IMG/VR virus record: IMGVR_UViG_3300020045_001610
Coordinates: 1 to 62,439 of that record
Source: a virus
Taxonomy: Duplodnaviria > Caudoviricetes
Reading direction: 5' to 3' (one strand)
Length of the DNA stretch: 62,439 nucleotides
Both the position numbers and the translations under genes were made by a program. Below the pieces are notes generated by a model. It did no database searches and had not been told where the DNA came from. It saw only the letters and a list, made by a program, of their open reading frames with translations. This document shows, piece after piece, positions 48,050 to 62,439 of the stretch (positions are counted from its first letter, which is position 1; each line of letters begins with the position of its first letter).

Positions 48050-48366
48050 ACATCCTCCGAACAGCAGAGAGTTGCAATCACGTTAAGTTCGTTAAATTCA
48101 ACAGGCAAAGGGCATTTATCGAGAATTGTATTAGCAAGTGGTCCTTTTTCAGCAAGTTCACCAAGACCTTTCGTTGTTCCCCAACGACGAATTACGGCGG
48201 CTTTTTCAAGCTTGCAGGCAGTTCCTTCTTTGGAGAAGTAACCAATCATATTCCAGCCGCGAGGAAGAATTACAATTTTGATATTGCCAGTTGGTTGATA
48301 AGTTTGAACGCTATCAGCTCTTACGTATTTTGTGTCGTCAATAGTGATTGTTTCAGGCTTGCTCAT
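48031..48366 (-). CDS. DUF6948-like protein
   Basis: IRRWGTTKGLGELA..GP; family recalled as neighbour of Gly-repeat ORFs. Confidence 0.65.
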
Positions 48367-48389
48367 TTCATTCTCCTTTTAGTTTGATG

Positions 48390-49322: not shown

Positions 49323-49392
49323 TTTGTTCGCCTTTCTGTGTTACAAGATGATTCTTTATCTCATACTACGTTTTTGATTGTCAAGGGTTATT

Positions 49393-50052
49393 TTAAAGAT
49401 CGTCAAAAATAACTGGAATAAGTTTCTTAAATTCAGCAAGTGCTGGATACATTAAATATTGCATTGATTCATCAGCATGACTATCTGCACGTTGTTTGAA
49501 TATATGTCGTAATTCTTCAAGATTTGCCGTAATCTCTACTTCAGTTTTACAGTCGTTAGGAAGTACGCCGCGAGCGCGTTCGGGTTTCCAACCTTCTTCT
49601 ATTAATACTTTGTAACTATGTTCAGCTTGCAGCATTGAACTTAACCATATTGTAGCAGTGGTACTACCTTTAAAGTTGCTAAATGATTTAAATACACCCT
49701 CTTCAATTTCATCGTGAAGATAAAAAGGAATTACAATAACGAGTTCACCGTTATTCTTATTACTGTAATTGCAGTACCTCTGGCTCTCCTGAAGAAAATG
49801 AGCCAAACCATGACGCACGATTTGATGGCTTGTCGATCTACTACAAATAAGCTTCATACTTGCCTGCTCGTGCCGCAATACAGAAGTATGTTTCTTATTG
49901 TGAACCAGATCGTACATGAAATCATAATTTGATTTAGGCGAAGCCTTTTCAGGCTTGTAGCAGGTATTTGCCTTAGCTCGTAACCTGCTTAGAATATCAG
50001 CGCCGGAGCGCATTTCGGGATCAATTATGAAAGACGGTTTAACGAGTAGCAT
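49393..50052 (-). CDS. thyX: flavin-dependent thymidylate synthase
   Basis: SHQIVRH...QESQRY, ERARGVLPN, TANL. Confidence 0.85.
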   Translation of the reverse strand: MLLVKPSFIIDPEMRSGADILSRLRAKANTCYKPEKASPKSNYDFMYDLVHNKKHTSVLRHEQASMKLICSRSTSHQIVRHGLAHFLQESQRYCNYSNKNNGELVIVIPFYLHDEIEEGVFKSFSNFKGSTTATIWLSSMLQAEHSYKVLIEEGWKPERARGVLPNDCKTEVEITANLEELRHIFKQRADSHADESMQYLMYPALAEFKKLIPVIFDDL

Positions 50053-50578
50053 TTTGTTCCTCCTGATATTTAGTAGCTGCTAACTGGCAATAATGCGCGG
50101 CTTTATTAAAGTCAAGCATTTCTTGTCCTGGGCGCTGGTTCTTGCCAAAGCGGTTAAGATACTTTTTAGCCTGTTCGACAAGCTGTTTGCTGTCCCATTC
50201 GGACGCTTGATCTTCGCCCTTATCGCCGTATTGAGGCACAGTGTATTCTTCAATGTGGGTAAACACTTCATCTGCAAAGCAACTCCAATCGTTGCCGCGT
50301 TTGGAAACTGTTTTGCAATGAAAGGATTCTAAAAATTCAGAATCAGAACTGTTTAAAGTAATTGTTTCAATTTTCATTCCGCCTTCAAGCAAGACTCTTT
50401 CAGCAGCAACGTCACGATTAACTGCACAATCTTCGGTAAAGTTATCATTTTTAAATATATGATTTTTTAAAGATTCAACTCTCGCGCCGGTTTCTGAAAT
50501 AAGTTGCATTTCGGCTTTTAGCAAACTAGCACATTCAAGCAGACGTTCGAGTTCTTCAACGCTGTAAATTTTACTCAT
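50039..50578 (-). CDS. protein with DUF3310-like C-terminal domain
   Basis: KYLNRFGK...D.NKAAHY. Confidence 0.5.
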   Translation of the reverse strand: MSKIYSVEELERLLECASLLKAEMQLISETGARVESLKNHIFKNDNFTEDCAVNRDVAAERVLLEGGMKIETITLNSSDSEFLESFHCKTVSKRGNDWSCFADEVFTHIEEYTVPQYGDKGEDQASEWDSKQLVEQAKKYLNRFGKNQRPGQEMLDFNKAAHYCQLAATKYQEEQNATR

Positions 50579-51016
50579 TTAAAACTCCTTACCTCCATGA
50601 CGATACGCTCTACCTTTATTATATTCAGATTTGGCAATGATTGCTTCGGCAATCCTCAGACCCTTTGCCGCGCCATAATCCATTATACGAATGATTACGT
50701 CAGCAAGCTCTGCTTCAGAGCCTTTGAACTCAGGTATGTGGGAATCGGGCGGATTGCCGTGGCGAAGTGCTTCAAGACATTCTGAAAGTTCAGAGTGCAT
50801 AAGAGCAATCATTTCGCCGTCATTTCTGTCACCTTCCCACCAACCTTTTTCAATTGCATTTTGGTTGATTTCAGCGGCTTTGATGTTGAACATTGTAACA
50901 AAATCTATTATACCTGTGTCTTTTTTGCCGCAGTTACATTCGTGATAGTTGTGTCGCGTCATCGCAAGAACTTCGGGATCATTTAAACTTAGCGCGTCAG
51001 TTCGGCAGTTGCTCAT
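50579..51016 (-). CDS. MazG-like NTP pyrophosphohydrolase
   Basis: HSELSECLE...ELADVIIR...YN..R. Confidence 0.85.
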   Translation of the reverse strand: MSNCRTDALSLNDPEVLAMTRHNYHECNCGKKDTGIIDFVTMFNIKAAEINQNAIEKGWWEGDRNDGEMIALMHSELSECLEALRHGNPPDSHIPEFKGSEAELADVIIRIMDYGAAKGLRIAEAIIAKSEYNKGRAYRHGGKEF

Positions 51017-51108
51017 TTATTTTTCCCCTTTGCAACAGGTTTAGCAAATCCAAACTTCAAGTCAAATGCTTCGCGTTCTTCTTTTTGCTTTGCTGTTTCT
51101 TTCATTTG

Positions 51109-51291
51109 TCACTCCTTTATTTTGGCTGGTATGAAGTCAATTCGTTCGGTTTTACCATTATATCTATTAGCACAAGCTATAGCGGAACCTTTATTAGCAT
51201 ACGCTTTTACAGCACGACCTGAATTGTCAAACGCTATGTATACACAATCTACAGTGGAAGTTGTAATCGGATATTTTTTTCTAACATTCAT
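51109..51291 (-). CDS. hypothetical protein
   Basis: ORF in operon. Confidence 0.5.
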   Translation of the reverse strand: MNVRKKYPITTSTVDCVYIAFDNSGRAVKAYANKGSAIACANRYNGKTERIDFIPAKIKE

Positions 51292-51470
51292 ACTTCAGTT
51301 AGCTCGTCAACAAAAACTTCAATGACACATACTGAAAAGTTTTCAGGTTTATCGTCAAGCTTAATAAAGCATAAACCTGCTTTTCTATGACAAGGGTGTA
51401 AAACTTCGTTAAGTTCTTCAACTGTTGCAAGTCCAAATTTTTTATGTCTTACTCTTGTGCCGGTTTTCAT
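51288..51470 (-). CDS. hypothetical protein (SH3-like)
   Basis: GTRVRHKKFGLATV. Confidence 0.5.
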   Translation of the reverse strand: MKTGTRVRHKKFGLATVEELNEVLHPCHRKAGLCFIKLDDKPENFSVCVIEVFVDELTEV

Positions 51471-51481
51471 AGTAGGTTCCT

Positions 51482-51694
51482 TTATACAGCGCAAGCTGCG
51501 TTATTTTTAAGATGTGCTATTTTACGTTCAAGTATCGAAATCGAACCTTGCAAGCGGCGAACGGTTTCTTTTTCAGAGGACAAATACTCAATGACTCGCA
51601 AAGCTTGTTCGTCGGTTACAGTATGCTTAAATTCAGCAAGCCAATTAATTGCTTCTTCGTAGTTACTTATTAAACATTCGTCGCGTCTGGGCAT
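51482..51694 (-). CDS. hypothetical protein
   Basis: AAAGGA RBS. Confidence 0.55.
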   Translation of the reverse strand: MPRRDECLISNYEEAINWLAEFKHTVTDEQALRVIEYLSSEKETVRRLQGSISILERKIAHLKNNAACAV

Positions 51695-51726
51695 TTGCTT
51701 TCCTTTCAGTTCGTTTTGTGAAATGC

Positions 51727-51828
51727 ACCTTACACGCTACTTTTTTAACAGTCAAGTGAAAAATGTATACTTTTGTCAATTTTTTTAACATTTATTCGCT
51801 TGACGTTTTGTAAACACTGTGCTAGGTT
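51727..51828. promoter_or_regulatory. divergent promoter pair
   Basis: leftward TTGACT-17-TAAGGT (51755-51727); rightward TTGACG-17-TAGGTT (51800-51828). Confidence 0.65.
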
Positions 51829-51856: not shown

Positions 51857-52063
51857 ATGATTACCCACAAATTACGAGATAAAACATTGAAGTTATTGAG
51901 GGAACGCAAGGCTAACGTTAAGCTTTCAGACATATCTGAAATTACAGACTTACCTTTAACTTGGTTAAAGAAGTTTTGTTACGAAGGTGACGACATTTGC
52001 CCGTCAGTTTCGTATATAGAAACTCTTTATGAATTTCTGACTAATAAGAAGTTGAAGATATGA
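51857..52063 (+). CDS. HTH (Cro-like) protein
   Basis: LSDISEITDLPLTWLKKF...PSV. Confidence 0.7.
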   Translation: MITHKLRDKTLKLLRERKANVKLSDISEITDLPLTWLKKFCYEGDDICPSVSYIETLYEFLTNKKLKI

Positions 52064-52245
52064 CTCAACATCACGACCTACGCTTCCACGTTATCCGCGA
52101 CAAATCCAACAAAAGCGAAATGGTTTACAGCTTTGACGGCGAACGTTGCCACGTATGCAATATGCCAACTGAAGTTGGCGCTGATCCGTCGCGTCGGTAT
52201 TGTAGCAACAGTAAATGTAATGCTTTGATTATTTTGGAGGTATAA
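52060..52245 (+). CDS. zinc-ribbon protein
   Basis: CHVC...CSNSKC. Confidence 0.55.
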   Translation: MTQHHDLRFHVIRDKSNKSEMVYSFDGERCHVCNMPTEVGADPSRRYCSNSKCNALIILEV

Positions 52246-52412
52246 TGATTAAGAAACTAGCTTTAGCATTCTTGGTTTGTTTGGTACTGAATGTAATTGC
52301 ATCTGCTGTAAACATATTTGCAAAGTATTACTTTGATTGGTTTCTTAACTCGTCATTCTTCTTTGCTGGTATGATTTACGAATGGTATTTAATAAAGAAA
52401 TTGGAGTTGTGA
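52245..52412 (+). CDS. small membrane protein (55 aa)
   Basis: GGAGG RBS; manual ORF. Confidence 0.5.
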   Translation: MIKKLALAFLVCLVLNVIASAVNIFAKYYFDWFLNSSFFFAGMIYEWYLIKKLEL

Positions 52413-53252
52413 ATGAAAGTCCTTTCTTTATTTGACGGCATCTCTTGTGGGAAACTTGCGCTGGATCGCGCCGGTATTAACGTAAGTCATTACGTCGCTT
52501 GCGAAATTGACAAATACGCAATTCAAGTTAGTAAAGCAAACCATAAAGATATTGAACACATAGGTGACGTTACTAAACTGACATTTCAACCAGATTATTT
52601 TGATTTACTTATCGGCGGTTCGCCTTGCCAAGGGTTTTCATTTGCAGGTAAAGGTTTAAATTTTGAAGACGAACGAAGTAAACTGTTCTTTGAATACGTT
52701 AGGATTTTAAACGAAGTAAAACCTGAATACTTTTTGCTTGAAAATGTAGTAATGAAACAAGAATTTCAAGACGTTATTTCTGGTTATTTGGGTGTAAAAC
52801 CAATTAAAATCAATAGTTCACTACTAAGTGCTCAGAACAGAGAACGTCTTTACTGGACAAATATACTGAACGTAGCACAACCGGAAGATAAAGGTATTGT
52901 TTTATCAGATATATTGGAAACGGATTATAGCTTTAAACTTTATATCAAGATGAATAAAATTAAGAATTGTCATACCAAAGCAGGTTGTTTGCATGGAACT
53001 GCTAACGCAGCGGGTAATCATTCACAAATGGATGTTATTGTAAAAGATAACGAAGTTGTACCTCTAACAAGTACAGGTAGAATTGACATTCATATTAATC
53101 CTAACGTTCGTAGATACAACATAGTTGAATGCGAGCGACTTCAAACACTACCTGACGGTTACACAAAATCAGTTTCACCTTCTCAAGCGCATAAGCAAAT
53201 AATAAACGGTTGGACTGTTGATGTAATTGCTCATATTTTATCATTTATTTAA
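52413..53252 (+). CDS. C5 DNA cytosine methyltransferase
   Basis: FDGISCG, GSPCQGFS, ENV, QNRER, ECERLQ. Confidence 0.9.
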   Translation: MKVLSLFDGISCGKLALDRAGINVSHYVACEIDKYAIQVSKANHKDIEHIGDVTKLTFQPDYFDLLIGGSPCQGFSFAGKGLNFEDERSKLFFEYVRILNEVKPEYFLLENVVMKQEFQDVISGYLGVKPIKINSSLLSAQNRERLYWTNILNVAQPEDKGIVLSDILETDYSFKLYIKMNKIKNCHTKAGCLHGTANAAGNHSQMDVIVKDNEVVPLTSTGRIDIHINPNVRRYNIVECERLQTLPDGYTKSVSPSQAHKQIINGWTVDVIAHILSFI

Positions 53253-53283
53253 AATTCAATTTAATATATACAAGGCGGGATTA

Positions 53284-55620
53284 ATGGAACGCTATGTACC
53301 TGAAGAACTCCGCATTAAAATGCCGTGGATATTATGGCAGTCACGTCAAGATTCACCTGATACAAAAGCTACTAAATTACCAATTGACCCTTACACAGGC
53401 CGGTTAGCTTCAGTTACAAATTCTGCAACTTGGGGCGCTTTTGAGCTTTGCTACAGCATAAAGCATTGCGCTACAGGTATGGGTATAGTCTTGCTCAAAG
53501 CGTTGGGTTACACCTGCATTGACCTGGACGAGACAGACGATCCCGTTGAACAAGCACGTCATCAAGCTATCATTAAAGCGTTCAACTCATACACCGAATA
53601 CTCACAATCTGGAAAAGGGTATCATATATGGGTTCGCGGCGTAGTTCTAATGGGTAGACGACGCGGTAAAGTTGAGATGTATTCAGACGGAAGATACATG
53701 GCGACAACTGGCAACGTATTTTTAGACGTACCAATACGTGAATGCCAAGAACTTCTAATGAGTTTATGGGATGAACTGGAAGTTAAAGAAAAGATAACAT
53801 CGGATATAGATAACCCTGAAGTTCATACCGACACTGAGGTTTTGACGTTTGCTTCCAGCGCAGCGAACGGACAGAAATTTATTGATCTTTGGGAAGGTCG
53901 GTGGCAACTGTACTATGACGATGAAGTTACAAAAGTAAGTTGCAACGAAGCAGATTTCGCACTTATAAATATTTTGGCCCACTACACTCAAAACAGAAAT
54001 CAAATTACACGTTTGTTTTTAAGTTCTGCGTTAGGAAAGCGTGAAAAAGCAAAACGCACTCAATACGTAGGCTACATGTTAAGTCGCGCCTTTGACAGAA
54101 TTCCGCCACCTTTAGACTTATCGGCGCTTCACGCCAATCTCGAATTACAACTTCAGGCTTCGAGAATTAAGCCTGAGTCGGTTATTGCGCCACAACCCAT
54201 AGCACCGGAGCCTGTTAAGCACGTTGAGCATCATAGCAAGCCTCAGAAACATTCAAAAAACGATATATCTGGATTTACATATACAGTACCCCCAGGGCTG
54301 TGCGGCGAGCTCGCTATGTTTATTCACAATGCTGCACCCCGTCCGGTTCCTGAGATTGCGATTGCCGGTGCAATTGGATTAATGAGTGGTATTTGTGGAC
54401 GTAGTTATAATGTAAGTGGAACTGGGCTTAATAATTATATATTTTTGTTAGCCAAAACCGGACGGGGCAAAGAGGCGATGGGTTCTGGAATTGGTAAATT
54501 AATAAACGCCGTAGTTAAGACTGTTCCAGCAGCTACAGCTTTTTCAGGGCCGAGTAAAATTGCATCTTCCGAAGCACTTTTAAAATATATTTCTAAAACG
54601 TCAAAATGTTTCTTATCTATAATGGGTGAGTTTGCTGATAGTTTGAAACGTATGTCTAACGACAGTAGAAACCCTGTTCAACAGGGAGTTCGACAAGTCA
54701 TGCTCGATCTTTATAATAAGTCTGGAAATGGAAATATTTTAGGTAATTTAATTTATTCAGATAAAGATAAAAACACCGAAGTTATAACCGCACCGGCATT
54801 TTCTATTTTAGGAGAAGCTACTCCTGAAAAGTTTTATGAATTATTATCCAAAGATATGATAACTGAAGGTTTACTTCCCAGGTTTTGTATTATTGAATAC
54901 AGTGGCCACAGAGTACAGTTAAACAAAGAACATCACAAAGCAATCCCTTCGCAACAGTTAACAGACCGTTTTGCAGCTTTGTGCACCTATTCCCTACAGT
55001 TAAACAATGGTGACAATTCTTTGGATGTTGTTTTAGATTCAGACGCTCAACGGTTGTTTGACGAATTTGATATGTACTGTGACAAAAAGATAAATAGTGG
55101 AAGTGAGATAAATCAAGAACTTTGGAACAGAGCACATATAAAAGCGTTAAAAATGGCGGCGTTACTGGCAGTTGGTTGTAACTACATTCAGCCGGTAGTT
55201 AACGCCGAATGTGCAAATTGGGCTTTAAATCTAGTAATTAACGATGTTAAAAATATACTCAGTCGTTTTGAATCAGGTGAAGTAGGTTTACCACAAGTAC
55301 AGAATGAACAATTTATTGACATCTACAAGGCATTTAAAAAGTATATGAAAGAGGATTGGCAAGCGGTTAACAAATACGTAGGCGCTTCGCTAATTACTCA
55401 CGAAAATCATTTGGTTCCGCATAGCTTTATAACAGCACATTGTAGGAATAAAGCTTCTTTTAAATCTGATCGACTAGGGCCAGTTAACGCAGTTAAGACA
55501 ATACTTCAGTCAATGATTGAGTCGGGTGATATTCAAGAAGTAAGTCCTTTGGATAAACAAAAATATAACCTTCCAAAGAACGGCAAAATTTATGCTCTTT
55601 TGAATTTGAGTTTAATATAA
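53284..55620 (+). CDS. primase-polymerase fused to DUF3987-like ATPase/helicase
   Basis: IDLD, EYSQSGKGYH, EMY; AKTGRGKE, GLLPRF. Confidence 0.85.
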   Translation: MERYVPEELRIKMPWILWQSRQDSPDTKATKLPIDPYTGRLASVTNSATWGAFELCYSIKHCATGMGIVLLKALGYTCIDLDETDDPVEQARHQAIIKAFNSYTEYSQSGKGYHIWVRGVVLMGRRRGKVEMYSDGRYMATTGNVFLDVPIRECQELLMSLWDELEVKEKITSDIDNPEVHTDTEVLTFASSAANGQKFIDLWEGRWQLYYDDEVTKVSCNEADFALINILAHYTQNRNQITRLFLSSALGKREKAKRTQYVGYMLSRAFDRIPPPLDLSALHANLELQLQASRIKPESVIAPQPIAPEPVKHVEHHSKPQKHSKNDISGFTYTVPPGLCGELAMFIHNAAPRPVPEIAIAGAIGLMSGICGRSYNVSGTGLNNYIFLLAKTGRGKEAMGSGIGKLINAVVKTVPAATAFSGPSKIASSEALLKYISKTSKCFLSIMGEFADSLKRMSNDSRNPVQQGVRQVMLDLYNKSGNGNILGNLIYSDKDKNTEVITAPAFSILGEATPEKFYELLSKDMITEGLLPRFCIIEYSGHRVQLNKEHHKAIPSQQLTDRFAALCTYSLQLNNGDNSLDVVLDSDAQRLFDEFDMYCDKKINSGSEINQELWNRAHIKALKMAALLAVGCNYIQPVVNAECANWALNLVINDVKNILSRFESGEVGLPQVQNEQFIDIYKAFKKYMKEDWQAVNKYVGASLITHENHLVPHSFITAHCRNKASFKSDRLGPVNAVKTILQSMIESGDIQEVSPLDKQKYNLPKNGKIYALLNLSLI

Positions 55621-56478
55621 ATCAGTGTCGTCAATTGAAATATGTTCAATTGGAAATTCAGCAAGCATTAACTCTTCTTTTTGTTTTCTTATGGTTTCTT
55701 GTCTCTTTATAACTGAAGCAGCTTTCTTTTCCTTACCTTCAGGCGTGTTCCAAAATTCTTTTATTGCAGCGGCTCTTTTAGCTACCGTTTCAGGGGATTG
55801 TGGTTTTGTTTTCTTGCCTTTTTGCCAAGCACTCTTTTTAGCTAAGGTTTCAGGTGAATCTTTTCTACCAATGTTATTTTTAGCCATTTCATAGCAGCGT
55901 TCAATTGCGCCTGGGGTTGCAGGTCTTCCAGTTGCGGCTATTACCATCTTATCTCTTGACTCTCTAGTATGCTGTTTTCCAGTAAAGCCAATTTTACGTT
56001 TATTTTTAACTTCTTCGCTTGCATTCAAAGCGTTAATTCTTCGTTTTTCCCTTGTTATTTCTGTTACAGGAGGTCTTTTCTTTGCCGATTCACTCATTCT
56101 ATTGCAAATTTCAGCATTTCTTTTCTTACCTGTATTTTTAAGTCTTATTTTTTCACGAGTTTCTTCGGTAACTGTTCTTGTACTTAAACCTAATCCACCT
56201 AGGGAATGATTGGTTAAATTTGCGCCTAAAGACCTCATATAAGCAATCCAAAATATTTCAGCTTCAGGCCATTCACTAAAATGATTTAAAGTTTCCAAAA
56301 TAATAATTTCAGGTTTATTCGGTTTTAAAGACCTAATCCAATTTGCACAGTATGTTCTACGGTTAGGATTGTCGTGGCAATGAGCATAAAGCCTAAGTCC
56401 AATATCTACCGATTTTCCAACATATCTAACTTCCGATGTAAATGGATCAAGTAACGCATAAATATGGGTAGGTTTCAT
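55612..56478 (-). CDS. GIY-YIG homing endonuclease with NUMOD3-like repeats
   Basis: HIYAL...YVGKS...R, E..WI, LTN; repeated ETREKI. Confidence 0.85.
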   Translation of the reverse strand: MKPTHIYALLDPFTSEVRYVGKSVDIGLRLYAHCHDNPNRRTYCANWIRSLKPNKPEIIILETLNHFSEWPEAEIFWIAYMRSLGANLTNHSLGGLGLSTRTVTEETREKIRLKNTGKKRNAEICNRMSESAKKRPPVTEITREKRRINALNASEEVKNKRKIGFTGKQHTRESRDKMVIAATGRPATPGAIERCYEMAKNNIGRKDSPETLAKKSAWQKGKKTKPQSPETVAKRAAAIKEFWNTPEGKEKKAASVIKRQETIRKQKEELMLAEFPIEHISIDDTDLY

Positions 56479-56600
56479 TAATCACCTCTAATTTATAATG
56501 GATTTGACAATTTGTAAATGAGATATAGCATTACCGCAAGTACAAGTCAACCGAAATAAATTGTTAGGTAATTACAAGCAGTTAAGGTAACCACCGAAAG

Positions 56601-56651
56601 TTAATGCAATATAAACAAAAGTATTAGCAGAATGATTATTAGGATTAGCAT
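56601..56651 (-). CDS. 16-aa hydrophobic peptide, copy 1
   Basis: MLILIIILLILLFILH; AAAGGA RBS. Confidence 0.55.
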   Translation of the reverse strand: MLILIIILLILLFILH

Positions 56652-56848
56652 GATTTAGTCCTTTCGTAATAACCTTTTAAACCAAGACGTTGAGCAATTC
56701 TATCACATTCAGCGCAATACATTTCAGAATCACGTTGATACTGTAGCAGAAAATTAACATTGCTAATTGTCGGTGCATATTCCATTTCTTTTAAATGCTT
56801 ACGTTGCTTTACAGTTAACCTTTGAGGTACTGTCTTTTTAGCTTTCAT
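56645..56848 (-). CDS. hypothetical protein
   Basis: GGAGG RBS. Confidence 0.55.
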   Translation of the reverse strand: MKAKKTVPQRLTVKQRKHLKEMEYAPTISNVNFLLQYQRDSEMYCAECDRIAQRLGLKGYYERTKSC

Positions 56849-56852
56849 AACC

Positions 56853-57089
56853 TTAAACCTCCCCTTGTATTGCTTCATCACTTGTAACACCTTTACAATC
56901 ACGTTTCAACTGTTTTAAAGCATTAGCAGCAATCTTTCTGTCAATTTCTTTATTGATATAAGTTAAACCTTGAATCAGGAATAGACAAGCTTTCTTAGTA
57001 CCTACATATACAACAAGTTCACCTGACGGAAAGTTGTAGCGTCTTGTAGCATGTTTAGTTCCTTTGTTTATGTGTTTGCATAGTGTCAT
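56853..57089 (-). CDS. hypothetical protein
   Basis: ORF track. Confidence 0.55.
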   Translation of the reverse strand: MTLCKHINKGTKHATRRYNFPSGELVVYVGTKKACLFLIQGLTYINKEIDRKIAANALKQLKRDCKGVTSDEAIQGEV

Positions 57090-57249
57090 TTTACACCGCC
57101 TAATTTAGCGGTTATACTAACTTCAGCTAAAAGTTTTTCAGCATCAGGAAAGCCAATTTCTTTTAATTCGTTTACAGCATCAGAAAAGCTCTTTTTGCCG
57201 GTCAAAATATCATTTGCAAACGGTCTAATGTGTTTCATTAGAAAGGCGT

Positions 57250-57588
57250 TCATTTTGCACCGCCAGTTAAGCGGGAAATGAAAGCCTGAACGGTTAAGTC
57301 ATTACCTGGATACGGGCCTCTAATGTTGTATGCTTTGCAATCTTTGGCACAATTGCACAAAATAACATGCTCTTGTTGTGCCGATTTAAGTGAATGCTTA
57401 ACAGCTACAATATTGCCAAGTTTTAGCGGTTTACCAAAATCTTCAATTACATTCTTTTCAACAATAAAAACATCATCATTTAAATTGTCGTAACAATCAC
57501 GACAGAAAGCATCTTCGTTATTGCCATAATAAACTTCATTGAAATGGTTTATAGTTTTGCTGCATTTATCACAAGTTTTATATTTCAT
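57250..57588 (-). CDS. zinc-finger protein
   Basis: CDKC...CRDC; AAGGAG RBS. Confidence 0.6.
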   Translation of the reverse strand: MKYKTCDKCSKTINHFNEVYYGNNEDAFCRDCYDNLNDDVFIVEKNVIEDFGKPLKLGNIVAVKHSLKSAQQEHVILCNCAKDCKAYNIRGPYPGNDLTVQAFISRLTGGAK

Positions 57589-57817
57589 TAGCTTTAGTCT
57601 CCTTTATTGTAGGTAATTTAAGTCAGTTAAGGAACTTTAGACAGTTAAGAAACTGTAGACAGTTAAACACGTTCAAAATAATCCAATGCTGCTAACGCAC
57701 CTTGCCCATAACCAGCTAATGTAAAAGCTTGTGCAATTGTGTCACCTTTAACAATTTCTTCTTTACCGTCTAACCAGTACAGTTTATAAGTATTCATTTT
57801 AAATCTCCTTTTAACAG

Positions 57818-57868
57818 TTAATGTAATATAAACAAAAGTATTAGCAGAATGATTATTAGGATTAGCAT
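57818..57868 (-). CDS. 16-aa hydrophobic peptide, copy 2
   Basis: same peptide; alternative in-frame ATG at 57880. Confidence 0.5.
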   Translation of the reverse strand: MLILIIILLILLFILH

Positions 57869-57901
57869 GACGGCAACCATTCTAACTTCCAGCGGTAACA
57901 G

Positions 57902-58261
57902 TTAAGGGTTATGTATTTGTTTAGCACCACGTAAAGCAGCGATTCTCTTTTGATCCATTTGATACGAAAAGCGACTAACTACAGTTAAGTTGTAACCGAT
58001 TGCAGTTAACTCCTTATAGAGCGGTATAAACTCTTTTTCCTCTTTATCATTATAAAACATCGGAAAAGCTCTTTTTGTTCCGTCAAGCGTAGCTTTACCG
58101 CTGCCATGTTGACCGTTGTGCATGTAGTTAAGGCAATTCAACACGCTGTTATCTCCTGGCAATTCGGGAAACAATGCTATAACTTCATCGTCTGGAAATT
58201 TGCGGAATATTACTTTTGTTTTTTCTTGTATTGTTGCGTCAATCTTGCTTAGTTTACCCAT
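57902..58261 (-). CDS. phage early-type protein
   Basis: VIFRKF...IALFP...YMH.GQH; AAGGAG RBS. Confidence 0.65.
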   Translation of the reverse strand: MGKLSKIDATIQEKTKVIFRKFPDDEVIALFPELPGDNSVLNCLNYMHNGQHGSGKATLDGTKRAFPMFYNDKEEKEFIPLYKELTAIGYNLTVVSRFSYQMDQKRIAALRGAKQIHNP

Positions 58262-58460
58262 TTTGTTTACTCTCCTTTAAAGACAATGTTTAGTTATCCA
58301 GATTTTAGCAGCGTGTAAACTTTTGCATACTTGTGTAAAACCATTATTAAAACGTACTTGACAATCGTTTGAAGTTGTAAAAGTTGTTATCATATAACCG
58401 TGGTATATGACTAGCTTTTCCACAATTCACCCCCTTAACAGTTAAGTTATTTATCTACAG

Positions 58461-58657
58461 TTAACGATAATAGCGCAATCCATCTTCAGTGCATTTGATC
58501 CAGCATTTAGGTAATCCGTTCTTGTCTGCCCACAATTCAACCGGAAAGGTTTTGTAGTGTGTTGATCCTTCAACAAACTTAATTTCGCTCATTGTCGGGG
58601 TTCTATGTGCTTCAATTGTTTTAACGTCTGCTCTAAATGGTAAGCTTGATTTTTCAT
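58461..58657 (-). pseudogene. frameshifted small gene
   Basis: ATG with strong RBS is out of frame with the long ORF unless the A5 run is A6. Confidence 0.4.
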
Positions 58658-58719
58658 GGTTAATTCCTTTCTTTGTAGGTAATTAGTGACAGTTAAAGCA
58701 ACGGTTAACAGTTAAACAA

Positions 58720-59205
58720 CTATTTACAAAACCTTTTAGCAGTCATAAACTTAACATAGTTATCAGCCTGTTTATACGTTTTGAAACGTGCAATCAATTC
58801 TTTGTTACAGTAAACCGCTTGTGTATAAGTTGCATTATCGGCGGTTAACAATTCATTTCCAATTTCCCATAAACCAAAATCAAGTTTAGGATGTTTGTAC
58901 AAGCAAACGCCGGACGTTGTATAAATAGCAACTATGCAATGTGCAAGAATACCATCACCGCCTGAAGAGTTTTGATTATGTATAAGTAAAGGGATTTTTG
59001 ATCCGGTTGAGCGTCCGATATAACCGCAAACGTCATTTTCTTCATTCCAGCATTTTCCGGTTTTTGTATCACCTAAAAATATTCTTACACGTTGTTGACG
59101 ATTATAACAGTTTAAACCTGAAATAACTTTCATAACTTCAATATTTGTTTCAGGATTAAACCAATAACCATTATATTCTATTTCTTTTCTCGTTGTCTTT
59201 TTCAT
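58720..59205 (-). CDS. phage early-type protein
   Basis: RVRIFLGD.KTG..W.EE.D..GYIGRSTG. Confidence 0.7.
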   Translation of the reverse strand: MKKTTRKEIEYNGYWFNPETNIEVMKVISGLNCYNRQQRVRIFLGDTKTGKCWNEENDVCGYIGRSTGSKIPLLIHNQNSSGGDGILAHCIVAIYTTSGVCLYKHPKLDFGLWEIGNELLTADNATYTQAVYCNKELIARFKTYKQADNYVKFMTAKRFCK

Positions 59206-59278
59206 TGTAAACCCCTTTTAGTTAAAGTAATTGGTTGCAGTTAAAGCAAGTCAAGACAGTTAAGGCAATGCTTAACAG

Positions 59279-59470
59279 TTAACGCTTGACAAATTGAATA
59301 CATCCAAAAAGCGGCCCTGTTTTAAGGTGTAATTGTAAGCCTTGATCGTCAAGAAAATCAGCATCAAGCGCAAAATCATTACCGGTCAAAGGCTTGCTAG
59401 TTTCCAGCCAGTCTATTTTATTGCATTCTGTATTATGTTTATTCCAAAATTTGCAATCTTTACAATTCAT
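59279..59470 (-). CDS. Cys-rich small protein
   Basis: CKDCKFW...FGCIQF. Confidence 0.6.
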   Translation of the reverse strand: MNCKDCKFWNKHNTECNKIDWLETSKPLTGNDFALDADFLDDQGLQLHLKTGPLFGCIQFVKR

Positions 59471-59580
59471 AACATATCCTTTCCTGAATATATGATTTTC
59501 TGAATATCGTCTCTAAGCGGTCAAGATTTTACCCTATACGTTACCCTTGACCGCTTGCCGTTTGACCTTCCTGGGGCCTC

Positions 59581-59877
59581 TCAGGAGGTCAAAAATCTTG
59601 TTAATGTGACGGTATTTCCGATAAATTCGATTGTCTCACCTTTATAGATAACGTACCAGATTCCCTTTTTCTGAAATACCGTATAGTCAAGGTTATACTC
59701 TTGACTTGCTAAGTTCATTCTATTTTTAGTTGTATTTGTCTTATAGCCGCCGGTGTCAAGCTTTATTGTTTCACTATCAAACGATACAATTTTAGTATTG
59801 TGAAGTTCAATTTCAGTTCTACAACTATCATTGTTATAGGTTATACGTGTATTTCCCTTTTTGCATAGTTCTACCAT
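59581..59877 (-). CDS. phage early-type protein
   Basis: LHNT...GGYKTNTTKNRMN. Confidence 0.65.
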   Translation of the reverse strand: MVELCKKGNTRITYNNDSCRTEIELHNTKIVSFDSETIKLDTGGYKTNTTKNRMNLASQEYNLDYTVFQKKGIWYVIYKGETIEFIGNTVTLTRFLTS

Positions 59878-59979
59878 GATTTGTCACTCCTTTGTAATTG
59901 GATTGCTACATCTTACAAGCTTTAAAGCTTAAACAGTCAACAGTTAACAGTTAAGCTTTAAAGCTTTACATAGTAACAA

Positions 59980-60351
59980 TCAAAAATCTTGAATTATAAA
60001 GCTTGAACCGTCAATATCTATAACTTGTGTATATTCGCGTATTTTGTCAATTGTCGCTTCATAGTCAATAACACCCTCAATCGGTTCTGTTTCGTCGTCG
60101 CCTTCCTCTGGTTCTGTTTCCCATACAATGTAACTATCATTGTAAGCTTTTATAAACTCTTCTACGTTTTCATATTCAGTGTATTCACAGCACAATGCTA
60201 TAACGTCAAGTTCTATTTCTTCTCCCGTTACTTCTTCATATTCTTCCAAGTAATCAAACAACGCTTTTTTACCGGCGTAACTAAAATTGTTTTCGCGATT
60301 GCAATCAATAAACGCTTTTTCAAAATTATAACTACTAACAGTCGTTTTCAT
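59980..60351 (-). CDS. highly acidic protein
   Basis: about 34 D/E vs 8 K/R in 123 aa. Confidence 0.7.
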   Translation of the reverse strand: MKTTVSSYNFEKAFIDCNRENNFSYAGKKALFDYLEEYEEVTGEEIELDVIALCCEYTEYENVEEFIKAYNDSYIVWETEPEEGDDETEPIEGVIDYEATIDKIREYTQVIDIDGSSFIIQDF

Positions 60352-60449
60352 GGTATTTCCCCTTTTTAATTGTTTGATAATGGGTAACAGTTAACGTCCG
60401 TTTACTATCTCATATACTGCCCACAATAAACAGAGTATTCCGCCAGTTA

Positions 60450-60726
60450 CTAGCATTTCTCGAATACTCTTGAATAAGTAACTTTGTCAAAATATGCTGA
60501 ATCTTTCAATCCATGCTTTACAGCACGCTTGCGGTAAAGTTCCCAGACATCTCGCTTTACACCGTCACTGTGATAGTTACCCTCATTGTCATAATTTGAG
60601 AGTATAACAGTAGAACGCACACCGTAATTTGCCATTGTATCACCAAAAAAATTTCATACTGCTACAATCAAAGAAATGCAAACCACTACCTAATTCAACG
60701 TTATATTTAAGTTCTGAAGGTCTCAT
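60450..60726 (-). pseudogene. gene apparently split at a T7 run
   Basis: removing one T joins MRPSELK...MKFF to GDTMANYGVR. Confidence 0.4.
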
Positions 60727-60877
60727 TGTCTCAATTCTCCTTTATAGGTTTAATTTGTGGGCAACATGATTTACAGTATTTTTGTGCCTGTAAAGCCTTT
60801 TCATAGCTTTTGTGTCTGGATATTGTTTCGCCTTGCTCGTTTATTAGTTCGTATTTGAATATCATTTTAAACCGCCT

Positions 60878-61189
60878 TTAAACGTAAATTATAGTATTGT
60901 AAGAATCGAATGAACAACGATTGTCTTTTGCCGTAAAGGTATGAACAATGATAAATTTACCGTACTGATAAACTGTATCATTACCGTCAAGAGTTAATGA
61001 GCTAGTACCACGAAAAATCTTATTACCTTTACGAGTGCAAATTGTTTTAGTTAAGCTTGACGTGTCAATATTGATATTTGTGTCAAGCAATGTTTTTGTT
61101 TCGTCAAGAGTTATACCTTTTGCACATATCAGATATAAACCTTCACTTGTAGCTATATCGTAAAACTTTTCTTTAGTTATTTTTTGCAT
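60878..61189 (-). CDS. hypothetical protein
   Basis: GAGG RBS. Confidence 0.6.
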   Translation of the reverse strand: MQKITKEKFYDIATSEGLYLICAKGITLDETKTLLDTNINIDTSSLTKTICTRKGNKIFRGTSSLTLDGNDTVYQYGKFIIVHTFTAKDNRCSFDSYNTIIYV

Positions 61190-61234
61190 AACCTCACCCC
61201 TTTTAAAGTTTAATGATAACAGTTAATAGTTAAA

Positions 61235-61528
61235 TTACATTCTATCGTTACAAACAATCATACTAGTATATTGTCTACCGTCATTATAAAAGCATTCCAG
61301 GTCGGCTATAATCTCTTGTAAATTTTCGTCAATAGAGAAACAATCGTCAATAAGCATGTAACCGGATTCTAAAAAGCCTGTATTAGTTGCACCGCCGAAA
61401 ACAAGGCGCTTATCAGTAGCATAAATGTAGAAGTCGTGAAACTCGCCAGCGTTGTCTTGAAACTCAATTAAGCCAACATATTTTCCAGTCTCTTCAGCGT
61501 TTGAATAATCCCATTTTGAACTTTTCAT
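61235..61528 (-). CDS. acidic hypothetical protein
   Basis: AAGGG RBS. Confidence 0.6.
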   Translation of the reverse strand: MKSSKWDYSNAEETGKYVGLIEFQDNAGEFHDFYIYATDKRLVFGGATNTGFLESGYMLIDDCFSIDENLQEIIADLECFYNDGRQYTSMIVCNDRM

Positions 61529-61553
61529 AATATTTTCCCTTTTAGTTATTTAA

Positions 61554-61802
61554 TTAGCTTAAATACAATTCAGTTTTACCGCTATATGTTGTCCATCCTA
61601 ACCACGCTATACGACTGTCTAACATGCCTATAGACGGCCACACAAATTTAGTTTTAACTTCATACCCTACTTTTGGAACTTTGCCGGTAATTGATAAAAG
61701 TTTTGCTGTTTTACGGTCAATTGTCAAGTAACCATCCCAGCGTAAAACAGCTTGAAATTGAGTACCGTCCGGTAATGTTTTAATCACGTGTTCTGCTTTC
61801 AT
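61554..61802 (-). CDS. hypothetical protein
   Basis: AAAGGGG RBS. Confidence 0.6.
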   Translation of the reverse strand: MKAEHVIKTLPDGTQFQAVLRWDGYLTIDRKTAKLLSITGKVPKVGYEVKTKFVWPSIGMLDSRIAWLGWTTYSGKTELYLS

Positions 61803-61814
61803 AATTTACCCCTT

Positions 61815-61883
61815 TCAATGATTAGTGTAATAAACCGTACAAATTAGGATTGATACCAGAAACAAGTCAATTGCAATTTGCAT
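61815..61883 (-). CDS. 22-aa hydrophobic peptide
   Basis: MQIAIDLFLVSILICTVYYTNH; AAGGGG RBS. Confidence 0.4.
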   Translation of the reverse strand: MQIAIDLFLVSILICTVYYTNH

Positions 61884-61899
61884 TTAAAACCCCTTTCAA

Positions 61900-62079
61900 T
61901 TACTTTGTTTCGTGCATTCTAATTAACTTCATTCCAATACTTTCATTTTTAGCATAAAAACCGGTATCGTTTGAACAATTACGGATATAAACACGGTCTT
62001 TAATATCACCCGAAAGTCTTATTGTAAAAACCTTGTCGTTATTTAATCTGATAGTTGTTTCGTTGATTGTAAGTTTCAT
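61900..62079 (-). CDS. hypothetical protein
   Basis: AAAGGA RBS. Confidence 0.55.
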   Translation of the reverse strand: MKLTINETTIRLNNDKVFTIRLSGDIKDRVYIRNCSNDTGFYAKNESIGMKLIRMHETK

Positions 62080-62178
62080 TGTCATTCCTTTCGTCGTAAG
62101 ATACTTTATACATTGCAGGTTGCTTGCCAAGTTTTATATTTATTTTTATTTATTATTTACTTTGTCATTTCAACTACT

Positions 62179-62226
62179 TACTTACTTAGTTACTTATTTA
62201 ATTACCTACTTGGTTACTTACTTATA
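62179..62226. repeat. 4 x 12-bp imperfect tandem repeat
   Basis: TACTTACTTAGT/TACTTATTTAAT/TACCTACTTGGT/TACTTACTTATA. Confidence 0.7.
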
Positions 62227-62439
62227 CCTCATATCAGACATATAACTATCTATCACTTTATATAATACGTTGTAAACTATTGTTATCACTACGTTATATT
62301 AGCACCTCATATCAGGTAGTCATTACTTCATTTAAGGTATACTCTTTTAGCCTGTAATATCCTTTTAACTATATCGCACACGTAGCAACTACCATTCCAA
62401 AGTTCATTTTAGCTCTTAATTAAGACTTCTTAAAAACAG

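What the first reader, a model, noticed from the sequence alone, without database searches (positions are those of the whole stretch)
56579..61233. Polar, phased CAGTTAA array across the early region
Seen: copies at 56579, 56812, 57264, 57624/42/60, 57815, 57899, 57982, 58003, 58439/58, 58690/709, 59238/57/76, 59941/48, 60388, 61220. All are in one orientation, and most clusters are spaced 18-19 bp. Several extend on the sense strand to TTAACTG-N5-AATTAC just before an RBS. A rough expectation is under 1 copy. Inference: iterated protein-binding sites, mRNA processing or antitermination signals, or Chi/KOPS-like polar signals on first-entering DNA.
Basis: partly seen in the sequence, partly recalled or inferred. 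Interest (0 to 1): 0.7.

Follow-up and report, generated by a model that had tools for sequence, protein, structure and literature searches.

The report
Polar intergenic repeat array in a phage
A group of uncultivated tailed phages carries dozens of copies of one short asymmetric DNA word, all pointing the same way in front of their small genes, which most likely are docking sites for a regulatory protein that controls or blocks transcription in one direction.

Summary
All 21 listed CAGTTAA copies exist, all on one strand. A second-order Markov model expects 1.6 in this region. Five more copies lie at 54916-55490, antisense inside the 3' end of the convergent primase gene.

On the coding strand of the small-gene arm the word is TTAACTG. 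It is the invariant half of a ~19-bp bipartite element, C-TTAACTG-Y-N6-TTG(C/A)Y. Seventeen of 21 copies sit in the short spacers between a stop codon and the next ribosome-binding site, often as tandem pairs or triples.

The same co-oriented arrays occur in at least eight related uncultivated phage contigs whose arm genes are otherwise unrelated.

The units are not generic sigma-70 promoters, show no RNA structure, and match no Rfam family.

My best reading (about 35%) is a set of asymmetric binding sites for one DNA-binding protein. These would act like mycobacteriophage operators and stoperators, giving a direction-dependent shut-off of the arm and protecting the primase gene from antisense read-through.

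Rival readings are primase-linked iterons or priming sites, positive promoter elements, and RNA-level signals.

The Chi/KOPS and "first-entering DNA" ideas are not supported.

This is a new variant of a known kind. The nearest precedents are L5 stoperators and the unexplained T1/TLS repeats.

The parts
54904..55003 (-). three TTAACTG copies (+ strand CAGTTAA at 54916, 54955, 54997), antisense inside the primase gene; they lack the TTG second half
55469..55496 (-). two copies 9 bp apart (55481, 55490), antisense inside the primase 3' end
56567..56585 (-). single unit TTAACTG-N6-ATTACC. It lies 107 nt upstream of the start of the 288-aa homing-endonuclease-like gene. A TTGACT-17-TATATC promoter-like site sits between the unit and that start.
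56800..56818 (-). single copy inside an ORF; the only copy in the arm that is not at a gene junction
57252..57270 (-). single copy 17 nt upstream of the ATG at 57253, overlapping the 3' end of the upstream ORF
57612..57666 (-). three tandem units with 18-bp steps, ahead of the SD and ATG at 57588. The distal copy supplies the stop codon of ORF 57663-57797.
57803..57821 (-). single copy 2 nt before the SD of ORF 57663-57797. Its TAA ends a 16-aa hydrophobic mini-ORF.
57887..57905 (-). single copy supplying the stop codon of ORF 57902-58261
57970..58009 (-). pair, 21 bp apart, inside the 3' part of ORF 57902-58261. The same pair in G004 precedes the start of a 215-aa gene that is truncated to a remnant here.
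58427..58464 (-). pair, 19 bp apart, ahead of the GTG start at 58423. The distal copy supplies a stop codon.
58678..58715 (-). pair, 19 bp apart, ahead of the SD and ATG at 58657
59207..59282 (-). three units with 19-bp steps, plus a degenerate fourth (TTAACTA), ahead of the ATG at 59205. The spacer is orthologous to a four-unit array in G004.
59922..59954 (-). two overlapping copies plus a TTGACTG variant (a run of three heptads), set in the top of a long hairpin spanning 59925-59970
60376..60394 (-). single copy 43 nt upstream of the ATG at 60351
61208..61233 (-). single copy plus an adjacent TTAACTA variant, 37 nt upstream of the ATG at 61189. This is the promoter-proximal-most unit in the record.
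55612..62130 (-). arm of about 20 small, mostly ORFan genes that carries the array; it is convergent with the primase gene
53284..55620 (+). primase-helicase gene with AEP, DUF3987 and a C-terminal winged-helix-like domain. It is a candidate binder and the host of five antisense copies.
51857..52063 (+). 68-aa four-helix XRE-like HTH protein (P0001), first gene of the primase operon. It is a candidate binder, but a weak one.

Best explanation
What the element is. The CAGTTAA copies are the invariant half of an asymmetric, bipartite element of about 19 bp. On the coding strand of the arm it reads C-TTAACTG-Y-N6-TTG(C/A)Y.

What I think it does. I read the units as binding sites for one sequence-specific DNA-binding protein. 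They would work like the operator and stoperator sites of cluster A mycobacteriophages.
- Where units overlap a promoter, as seen in relatives, the bound protein would occlude it.
- Where units sit in the short spacer ahead of a ribosome-binding site, or antisense inside the convergent primase gene, the bound protein would stop RNA polymerase that travels in the arm's direction.
- The whole small-gene arm could then be shut off as a block, and its read-through could not run antisense into the primase gene. Primase transcription comes from the other side and would be let through.

Candidate binders. These are the 68-aa HTH protein that heads the primase operon, the winged-helix C-terminus of the primase-helicase, or a host factor.

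Shown versus inferred. The sequence anatomy, orientation, position and conservation are shown. Protein binding, the identity of the binder and the negative sign of the effect are inferred.
For: Asymmetry and the fixed second half. Over 92 units from six records, T occupies +14 in 80 and +15 in 73, while the N6 spacer varies.

One orientation, co-directional with arm transcription.
- The window has 21 against 0.
- The bipartite pattern, counted as arm orientation against the other strand, gives: G000 14/2, G001 20/0, G002 16/1, G003 15/2; G004 20/0, G007 4/1, G008 4/0.
- Reversed-pattern controls give 0-2 per record.

Short intergenic position. Seventeen of 21 units lie in spacers or supply a stop codon.

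The array continues past the last arm gene, antisense into the primase gene: 5 copies in the window, 9 in G004, 6 in L184 and 3 in G006. All are in the arm's orientation. There is no gene there to switch on, but a polar block would be useful.

Units overlie strong sigma-70-type promoters that need no activator.
- In G004 a 7-unit cluster ends in a TTGACA that is the -35 of TTGACA-16-TAGTAT.
- In L097 a pair covers TTGCTT-17-TGcTATAAT (the promoter is my reading of the printed sequence).

The units are not promoters themselves. No -10-like hexamer occurs at any fixed offset: 0-6 of 84 units at each offset from 20 to 59.

Precedent. L5-type repressors bind asymmetric sites in short intergenic spaces. 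Site orientation correlates with transcription, and reversing it abolishes repression (PMC9283540, passages read).
Against: - No binder is identified. The recognition helix of P0001 varies among array-bearing phages although the 7-mer is invariant.
- P0001 homologues also occur in 9 loci without arrays in the fetched +/-10 kb.
- G005, rated 93% complete, has 3 units but no P0001 homologue.
- No integrase was found in the record, so an 'immunity' role is doubtful (the record is rated 81% complete).
- Tandem arrays and restriction to one arm are unlike L5.
- The first genes of the arm lack units in the window, G001 and G004. This would suit an activator or antiterminator model equally well.
- There are no expression or binding data of any kind.
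Confidence: 0.35

Rival explanations
1. The units are iterons of the replication system. The primase-helicase would bind them through its C-terminal winged-helix domain. The clusters in or next to its own gene would be the origin, and the others would titrate or load the initiator.
For: - The units are bipartite 19-23-bp direct repeats in tandem and in one orientation, which is the classical iteron format.
- Units lie inside or directly after the primase gene in 7 of 9 phages.
- In G004, G006 and L184 three units sit in the variable linker of the primase gene.
- In L098 the only cluster (4 exact units and 1 variant) lies between the primase stop and an AT-rich region with its own repeats. It precedes no gene start.
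- The C-terminal 130 aa fold as a winged-helix-like domain (pLDDT 85.7). The best fold matches are Cdc53 WHB, Fur/PerR, TubR, MarR and ORC winged helices, at weak E-values of 0.1-0.8.
- From recall: lambda ori lies in the O gene linker, the P4 alpha protein binds iterons, and the N15 ori lies in the 3' part of repA.
Against: - There are at least 12 separate clusters over 6.3 kb, nearly all placed just ahead of ribosome-binding sites. No origin is known to look like this.
- G001 and G008 have no unit within 1.5 kb of the primase gene.
- The putative recognition helix varies among array-bearing phages.
- More distant primases with a homologous C-terminus have no such arrays.
Confidence: 0.22
2. 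The units are positive transcription elements. They would be activator or enhancer sites, or promoters read by host RNA polymerase after phage modification, analogous to T4 MotA-type middle promoters. Each delayed gene of the arm would be switched on through them.
For: - The units lie upstream of nearly every gene from the fourth gene onward, and are absent from the first genes of the arm.
- Both halves resemble -35 hexamers. TTAACT and TTGAC(T) are one or two changes from TTGACA, and the window's own operon promoters use TTGACG and TTGACT.
- G004 has a 7-unit cluster just upstream of a promoter.
- The T1/TLS repeats, which also carry a TTGnTA half, have been proposed to be enhancer or UP-like elements (PMC11447400, passages read).
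Against: - The proximal unit starts only 33-45 nt before the ATG and abuts the SD. A transcription start downstream of it would lose the SD.
- No -10-like element lies at a fixed offset.
- No Sigma70_r2 or T7-type RNA polymerase match was found in the record (the RNA polymerase control rang nowhere).
- None of the roughly 40 ORFs scanned hit a sigma or activator family.
- Antisense copies inside the primase gene would fire into the gene.
- The immediate-early ORFs are not conserved among relatives although the motif is invariant.
Confidence: 0.15
3. The units are an RNA-level signal in the polycistronic arm transcript. UUAACUG would act as a processing site, a binding site for a translational repressor, or a translation enhancer just 5' of the SD.
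For: - There is a constant geometry relative to the SD and start codon (peak at 33-45 nt).
- The orientation is strictly that of the mRNA.
- The 7-mer is sharp.
- The unit-bearing leaders are unstructured, so the motif would be single-stranded (z from +0.28 to -1.3 in 5 of 6 folds).
- From recall: the T7 gene 10 'epsilon' enhancer UUAACUUUA sits in the same place relative to an SD.
Against: - Copies antisense in the primase gene matter only if read-through occurs. The same applies to the L098 cluster, which has no downstream gene.
- The G004 cluster lies upstream of a promoter.
- The fixed second half and the tandem repetition are more typical of DNA sites.
- There is no Rfam match at E<=1.
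Confidence: 0.13
4. The units are strand-specific priming signals. The AEP primase would recognise the 7-mer on single-stranded DNA, as the NrS-1 primase-polymerase recognises 5'-TTTGGTTA-3'.
For: - The primase has an AEP N-terminus and a near-threshold match to the NrS-1 helix-bundle domain (25.0 bits against a cut-off of 27.9).
- NrS-1 uses an 8-nt template motif thought to fix the initiation site (PMC8718748, passages read).
- More distant primase relatives are enriched for TGTGGTTA/TAACCACA, which resembles the NrS-1 motifs.
- The word is sharp and strand-specific.
Against: - Priming sites should not need a partner half-site at +14, a tandem arrangement or an intergenic position.
- They should occur on lagging-strand templates genome-wide, yet outside the arm the word is at background.
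Confidence: 0.07
5. The units have no dedicated function. They would be a heptad-derived simple repeat, or a selfish linker that spreads with gene cassettes by recombination.
For: - Identical unit arrays flank unrelated genes. Between G003 and G005 identity is 46 of 58 around the units, against 30 of 120 downstream and 7 of 35 upstream, and the downstream proteins have no BLASTP hit.
- The window and G004 share a leader but not the gene behind it.
- The unit has a 3 x 7 layout, and TTAACTG/TTGACTG heptad arrays are common in Microcoleaceae genomes.
Against: - Strict orientation, exact conservation of the 7-mer against free drift of the N6 spacer, and embedding in the primase coding sequence all indicate selection on the word itself.
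- Recombination at the units is better seen as a by-product.
Confidence: 0.05
6. The units are Chi/KOPS-like polar signals, or signals on first-entering DNA.
For: Polarity and over-representation.
Against: - The word is confined to one arm and mostly to intergenic spacers.
- It is bipartite and tandem.
- The contig ends are not known genome ends.
- An HNH endonuclease, small terminase and large terminase cluster at 5.2-9.2 kb suggests the packaging site lies elsewhere.
Confidence: 0.03

Closest known systems
Operator/stoperator sites of cluster A mycobacteriophages (L5 gp71, TipsytheTRex repressor)
   Same: Both are asymmetric sites present in more than 20 copies. Both lie mostly in short intergenic spaces, with orientation tied to the direction of transcription. 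A few copies lie at promoters. (PMC9283540, passages read; here.)
   Different: - The L5 site is a 13-bp single site; here the site is a ~19-bp bipartite unit, usually in tandem arrays of 2-7.
- L5 sites are genome-wide in both operons; here they occupy one arm plus the antisense strand of the neighbouring primase gene.
- L5 is temperate and its 183-aa two-domain repressor is known. Here no integrase was found and no binder is identified.
- The sequences are unrelated.
21-22-nt direct repeats of T1-like phages (T1, TLS, Stevie)
   Same: Both occur in lytic siphoviruses. Both are asymmetric, predominantly intergenic and oriented with transcription. Both are bipartite with a TTG-containing 3' half (aaATAGCACnnnTTGnTAAAA). 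The function of the T1-type repeats is unknown, with stoperator, enhancer and UP-element roles proposed. (PMC11447400 and PMC4319613, passages read.)
   Different: - The sequence is different.
- T1-type repeats are single copies about 76 nt upstream of start codons and spread over the genome.
- Here the repeats are tandem, start 33-45 nt before the start codon, abut the SD, and are confined to one arm.
- Supplementary Table S1 of the TLS paper, which lists the repeats, could not be seen.
Replication-origin iterons lying in or beside the initiator gene (lambda O, P4 alpha, N15 repA; recalled, except for one sentence on lambda in PMC11447400)
   Same: Both are 19-23-bp direct repeats in tandem. 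Clusters lie inside the linker or 3' part of the primase-helicase gene, or just after it.
   Different: Here there are a dozen or more clusters spread over 6-10 kb of 5' leaders. This is not universal at the primase gene, being found there in 7 of 9 phages.
PeSL promoter/stem-loop cassettes of T4-type phages
   Same: Both are repeated regulatory spacers flanking small ORFan genes. Both mark the junctions where genes are swapped (PMC2839356 and PMC4122927, search listing only; here).
   Different: PeSLs are an early promoter plus a terminator hairpin. Here the repeats show no promoter geometry and no hairpin.
NrS-1 primase-polymerase recognition motif 5'-TTTGGTTA-3'
   Same: Both are a long, strand-specific word linked to an AEP primase with a helix-bundle domain (PMC8718748, passages read).
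   Different: The NrS-1 motif is a single-strand template signal with no partner half-site. Its genomic distribution is not described in what I read.

Membership tests
L5-type operator/stoperator system | asymmetric binding site | tested here: met
   The consensus C-TTAACTG-Y-N6-TTG(C/A)Y is not palindromic.
L5-type operator/stoperator system | many copies in short intergenic spaces | tested here: met
   Seventeen of 21 copies lie in spacers or at stop codons, while non-coding DNA is 17.9% of the arm.
L5-type operator/stoperator system | orientation follows the direction of transcription | tested here: met
   The arm has 21 against 0. Relatives give 15-20 against 0-2. Only one transcription unit carries the sites, so the rule could not be tested on oppositely oriented operons.
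L5-type operator/stoperator system | copies also overlap the early promoter (operator) | tested here: inconclusive
   This is seen in G004 and L097. It is not seen in the window, whose arm start lies at the contig end.
L5-type operator/stoperator system | cognate monomeric repressor with an HTH plus a second DNA-binding domain | tested here: inconclusive
   No such protein was recognised among the scanned ORFs. The P0001 profile hits a PDB 'Immunity repressor protein' (8bny) only at E=0.3.
L5-type operator/stoperator system | temperate phage (sites maintain prophage silence) | tested here: not met
   There is no PF00589 match in the record. The record is rated 81% complete, and other recombinase types were not searched.
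L5-type operator/stoperator system | orientation-dependent block of elongation by the bound protein | not testable with these tools
   This needs reporter or in-vitro transcription assays.
T1/TLS-type 21-nt direct repeats | consensus aaATAGCACnnnTTGnTAAAA | tested here: not met
   The consensus here is different, and only the TTG half is alike (PMC11447400).
T1/TLS-type 21-nt direct repeats | [quoted passage not shown] | tested here: met
T1/TLS-type 21-nt direct repeats | about 76 nt upstream of start codons, single copies | tested here: not met
   The proximal unit starts 33-45 nt from the start codon, and the units are mostly tandem.
Replication-origin iterons | 17-23-bp direct repeats in tandem and in one orientation | tested here: met
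Replication-origin iterons | located in or next to the initiator gene | tested here: inconclusive
   This holds in 7 of 9 phages but not in G001 or G008.
Replication-origin iterons | confined to one or two loci, with an adjacent AT-rich unwinding region | tested here: not met
   The window has at least 12 clusters over 6.3 kb. An AT-rich neighbour is seen only in L098.
Replication-origin iterons | bound by the initiator protein | not testable with these tools
   A winged-helix-like C-terminus is predicted, but binding is untested.
Sigma-70 or MotA-type promoters | -10 element at a fixed distance and a transcript start upstream of the SD | tested here: not met
   At each offset from 20 to 59, 0-6 of 84 units have a -10-like hexamer. 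The unit abuts the SD.
Sigma-70 or MotA-type promoters | phage sigma factor, appropriator or RNA polymerase present | tested here: inconclusive
   There is no Sigma70_r2 match. There is no PF00940 match either, but that control rang nowhere. Small ORFans cannot be excluded.
Chi/KOPS-type polar signals | a single short word dispersed along the replicon irrespective of genes | tested here: not met
   The word is confined to one arm, is intergenic, and is bipartite.
AEP primase recognition motif (NrS-1 type) | recognised on single-stranded template by the helix-bundle domain | not testable with these tools
   The helix-bundle domain match is just below the Pfam cut-off.

The most novel reading that the evidence does not exclude
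One site family serves both replication and transcription. The primase-helicase would bind the units through its winged-helix end, or read the 7-mer as a priming word. The clusters inside and beside its own gene would act as the origin. The same bound protein, on the co-oriented units ahead of every delayed gene, would form a one-way barrier. That barrier would switch off the small-gene arm when replication starts and keep its transcripts from colliding with the primase gene. This would be a built-in, direction-sensitive switch from transcription to replication in a non-integrating phage.
Probability: 0.15. Interest if true: 0.75.

Novelty: new variant of a known kind. Interest (0 to 1): 0.55.

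Why it matters
Asymmetric, transcription-oriented intergenic repeats are understood in only one phage group, the cluster A mycobacteriophages. Their counterparts in T1-like phages have been an acknowledged open question for twenty years.

This array offers a third, independent and unusually clean case:
- It has an exact 7-mer with a fixed partner half-site.
- It occurs in 20-35 copies per genome.
- It is conserved across phages whose arm genes are unrelated.
- It extends antisense into a convergent essential gene.

That last feature gives a specific, testable prediction, namely a one-way block. The case also offers two small candidate proteins that can be made and tested in vitro without knowing the host.

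The units also mark the junctions where small genes are exchanged between phages. They therefore bear on how ORFan gene arms are shuffled.

Tried and rejected
- **Triple-motif scan of IMG/VR.** It returned mostly collagen-like G-L-T-G coding repeats, which are false positives.
- **Search for cultured relatives.** DNA and protein searches of the phage collection found none. The primase is at most 46% identical, the capsid at most 45% and the DNA polymerase at most 53%. The host remains unknown. There are no tRNA genes.
- **Sequencing runs.** No RNA holder is listed. Only two DNA runs hold small shares, and I did not lay them.
- **Literature search for the word itself.** It returned only primer-type hits. 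I found no paper describing a TTAACTG/CAGTTAA phage repeat in these two searches.
- **Sigma-70 promoter scan of the arm.** It gave 33 sites against 30.3 +/- 6.3 in shuffles.
- **Promoter-like sites near units.** Few exist.
- **RNA structure.** Five of six leaders fold no better than shuffles. There is no Rfam hit.
- **P0001 as binder.** The co-occurrence is suggestive. However, helix 3 is variable, homologues exist without arrays, and one phage has units without a homologue.
- **Other over-represented words in distant primase relatives.** These are TAACCAC(A) and GACCACA. They are dispersed on both strands and are not analogous arrays.
- **Pattern scan of bacterial genomes.** It hit TTGACTG/TTAACTG heptad tandem repeats of filamentous cyanobacteria. 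A test for phage DNA in three such genomes found nothing. I draw no host inference from this.
- **Not used.** I did not use the metagenome-contig scan, read laying or complex prediction.

Full report
**The record.** The window is a whole record: a 62,439-bp linear contig of a tailed phage, rated 81% complete. Gene calling and family scans show four blocks.
- A long rightward block (128-36170) carries lysis genes, an HNH endonuclease, small and large terminase, portal, protease, capsid, tape measure and tail genes.
- A leftward replication block (36218-51791) carries DNA polymerase, clamp-like factor, helicase, Cas4-like nuclease, SSB, Sak4, ligase and thymidylate synthase.
- A short rightward operon (51857-55620) ends in a 778-aa primase-helicase.
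- A leftward arm of about 20 small, mostly ORFan genes (62130 down to 55612) converges on the primase gene.

No integrase, Sigma70_r2 domain or T7-type RNA polymerase was found. The control for the RNA polymerase family rang nowhere, so that blank is weak. No close cultured relative exists in the phage collection, and the host is unknown.

**The observation.**
- In 55612-62439 CAGTTAA occurs 21 times on the + strand and never on the - strand. A second-order Markov model expects 1.6.
- The rest of the genome is at background, with 9 and 7 copies against about 7 expected per strand.
- One-mismatch variants are not enriched, 26 against 22.
The Poisson P is about 9e-8.

**Anatomy.** The arm genes are on the minus strand, so the word reads TTAACTG in their sense.
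- I aligned 92 units from the window and five related records. The consensus is C-TTAACTG-(T/C)-N6-TTG(C/A)(C/T), with T at +14 in 80 of 92 and at +15 in 73 of 92, while the six bases between the halves vary.
- The bipartite pattern TTAACTG-N7-TT is almost exclusive to the arms. Counting arm orientation against the other strand gives 14/2 in the window, 20/0, 16/1 and 15/2 in G001-G003, and 20/0 in G004. Reversed-pattern controls give 0-2.
- In the window, 13 of 21 copies lie wholly in non-coding spacers and 4 more provide the TAA stop of the upstream ORF. Non-coding DNA is 17.9% of the arm.
- Of the four 'coding' copies, one sits 17 nt before the next ATG. Two precede a start codon that opens a 215-aa gene in G004 and only a remnant here.
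- Units come singly or as tandem pairs and triples. Steps are 18-19 bp in the window and mostly 21 bp (range 17-23) in relatives.
- An orthologous spacer has 19-bp steps in the window and 21-bp steps in G004, so helical phase is not conserved.
- The proximal unit starts 33-45 nt before an SD-preceded start codon and abuts the SD.

**Conservation.** I searched IMG/VR with the primase, with a two-sequence primase profile, with a profile of the small protein P0001, and with a bipartite DNA pattern.
- These searches found co-oriented arrays in G001, G002, G003, G004, G006, G007, G008 and the near-identical pair L183/L184.
- Their primases are only 46-57% identical to the window's. Most arm proteins have no homologue between records. 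The 7-mer is nevertheless identical.
- More distant primase relatives (29-36% identity), and L132 at 43%, have no such array.
- Unit arrays are shared between unrelated contexts. G003 and G005 are 46 of 58 identical around the units but at random level on both sides, and they encode unrelated proteins downstream. The window and G004 share a leader but not the gene behind it. The units therefore also mark recombination junctions.

**Beyond the arm.** The array does not stop at the last arm gene.
- Antisense copies, all in the arm's orientation, lie inside the primase gene: 5 in the window, 9 in G004, 6 in L184 and 3 in the part of G006 that is held.
- In G004, G006 and L184 three of them sit in the variable linker of the protein, and G006's three carry the complete second half.
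- In L097 and L099 a pair lies right after the primase stop, next to the bidirectional terminator.
- In L098 the only cluster (four exact units and one variant, 23-bp steps) lies between the primase stop and an AT-rich region with its own repeats. It precedes no gene start.
- G001 and G008 have no unit within 1.5 kb of the primase gene.
- At the other end, the first genes of the arm lack units in the window, G001 and G004.
- In G004 a seven-unit cluster sits immediately upstream of the arm. The TTGACA of its last unit is the -35 of a TTGACA-16-TAGTAT promoter-like site.
- In L097 a pair overlies TTGCTT-17-TGcTATAAT (the promoter is my reading of the printed sequence).

**What it is not.**
- It is not a generic sigma-70 promoter. 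No -10-like hexamer occurs at any fixed offset (0-6 of 84 units at each offset). The geometry leaves no room for a transcript start ahead of the SD.
- The window's own operon promoters are ordinary: TTGACG-17-TAGGTT and TTGACT-17-TAAGGT.
- It is not a structured RNA. Five of six leaders fold like shuffles. The exception is a long hairpin at 59925-59970 with the units at its top.
- It matches no Rfam family.
- It is not a dispersed Chi/KOPS-type word. Nothing shows that this DNA enters first.

**Candidate binders.** Two proteins are shared by the array-bearing phages within the stretches I hold.
- P0001 (68 aa, 51857-52063) heads the primase operon.
  - It models as four helices (pLDDT 82). Its best fold matches are XRE-type HTH domains such as DdrO, AcrIIA15 N-terminal domain, SinR and C proteins, at TM 0.60-0.67 but with non-significant E-values.
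  - Its family of 78 proteins is entirely metagenomic and unnamed. One member is fused to a GIY-YIG nuclease.
  - It is present in all array-bearing records where the region is covered. It is absent from G005 (three units, 93% complete) and present in nine loci without arrays in +/-10 kb. Its helix 3 varies among array-bearing phages.
- The primase C-terminal 130 aa model as a winged-helix-like domain (pLDDT 85.7; matches are all winged helices, at E-values of 0.1-0.8).
  - The domain has residues specific to the array-bearing group, but again a variable putative recognition helix.
- Neither protein is a convincing match for an invariant word, so a host factor remains possible.

**Interpretation.** The closest known behaviour is that of L5-type operators and stoperators. 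These are asymmetric sites in short intergenic spaces whose orientation follows transcription, and reversing the orientation abolishes repression (PMC9283540, passages read).

A polar block explains several features together:
- the strict orientation;
- the intergenic placement;
- the units that cover promoters needing no activator;
- the copies that continue antisense into the convergent primase gene, where a one-way barrier would stop read-through but let primase transcription pass.

I give this 0.35. It is a functional analogy and not membership, because there is no integrase, no recognised repressor, and the sites are tandem and confined to one arm.

The rivals are as follows.
- The iteron or origin reading (0.22) explains the repeat format and the clusters in and beside the primase gene. 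It does not explain a dozen clusters in 5' leaders.
- Positive elements (0.15) fit the absence of units from the first genes. They do not fit the geometry or the antisense copies.
- An RNA-level signal (0.13) fits the constant distance to the SD. It does not fit the promoter-upstream and gene-less clusters.
- Primase priming words (0.07) are suggested by the NrS-1 precedent (PMC8718748, passages read).
- A function-less repeat (0.05) is unlikely.
- Chi/KOPS-like signals (0.03) are unlikely.

T1-like phages carry an analogous, still unexplained 21-22-nt repeat (PMC11447400 and PMC4319613, passages read). That makes this a new variant of a known kind.

**Limits.**
- No expression or binding data exist, and no RNA holder is listed among public runs.
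- The host is unknown.
- Supplementary tables of the cited papers could not be opened.
- The metagenome collection was not scanned.

Noticed in passing
window 56601-56651 and 57818-57868 (minus strand): Two copies of a ~55-bp direct repeat each encode the same 16-aa, purely hydrophobic mini-ORF (MLILIIILLILLFILH). In one copy the stop codon lies in a TTAACTG unit.
   Followed up: partly
window 60450-60727 (minus strand): A gene appears split by a frameshift at a run of seven T (A on the + strand, about 60640). The DNA across the run matches one continuous hypothetical gene of Pseudomonas phage VCM-like phages at 69-70% identity. This could be a homopolymer sequencing error or a programmed shift.
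   Followed up: partly
window 59471-59580: This is the only long spacer of the arm without a unit. It holds two inverted repeats (aagcggtcaag...cttgaccgctt and gacctcc...ggaggtc) and two overlapping promoter-like sites. It may be an internal terminator-plus-promoter boundary.
   Followed up: no
window 62132-62224: The region near the contig end, upstream of the arm, is AT-rich with TTACTTACTTAG-type short tandem repeats. An AATTACCTAC word lies here on the opposite strand to its copies in the arm leaders.
   Followed up: no
window 6283-9183: The large terminase ORF is unusually long (966-988 aa). It matches terminase families in two separate stretches and has extra helicase-loader-like hits, which suggests an inserted element such as an intein.
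   Followed up: no
L097 16318-16580: A 24-bp tandem repeat (about 11 copies, core CCACATCG) lies inside a 258-aa ORF of a relative's arm.
   Followed up: no
L114, L126-L128, L130, L139 (TAACCAC/TGTGGTTA); L116, L122 and others (GACCACA): Phages with more distant primases are enriched for these 7-8-mers, for example 18 and 12 copies on the two strands against 2 expected. The copies are dispersed through genes. The words resemble the published NrS-1 primase recognition motifs GTGG and TTTGGTTA.
   Followed up: partly
L132 1-320: About twenty tandem 15-bp repeats (GCTCCGCGCAAGTCG-like) lie roughly 1 kb upstream of a related primase gene. This phage has no TTAACTG units and no P0001 homologue in the part held.
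   Followed up: no
L198-L277 (bacterial genome contigs): TTGACTG/TTAACTG heptad tandem arrays are frequent in Microcoleus, Tychonema, Kamptonema and other filamentous cyanobacterial genomes. The phage word equals one of these heptads, and the phage unit is 3 x 7 bp long in most relatives. No phage DNA match was found in three such genomes.
   Followed up: partly
protein P0021: One member of the P0001 family is a 183-aa fusion with a GIY-YIG nuclease domain. The small HTH module is therefore also used as the DNA-binding part of a nuclease.
   Followed up: no
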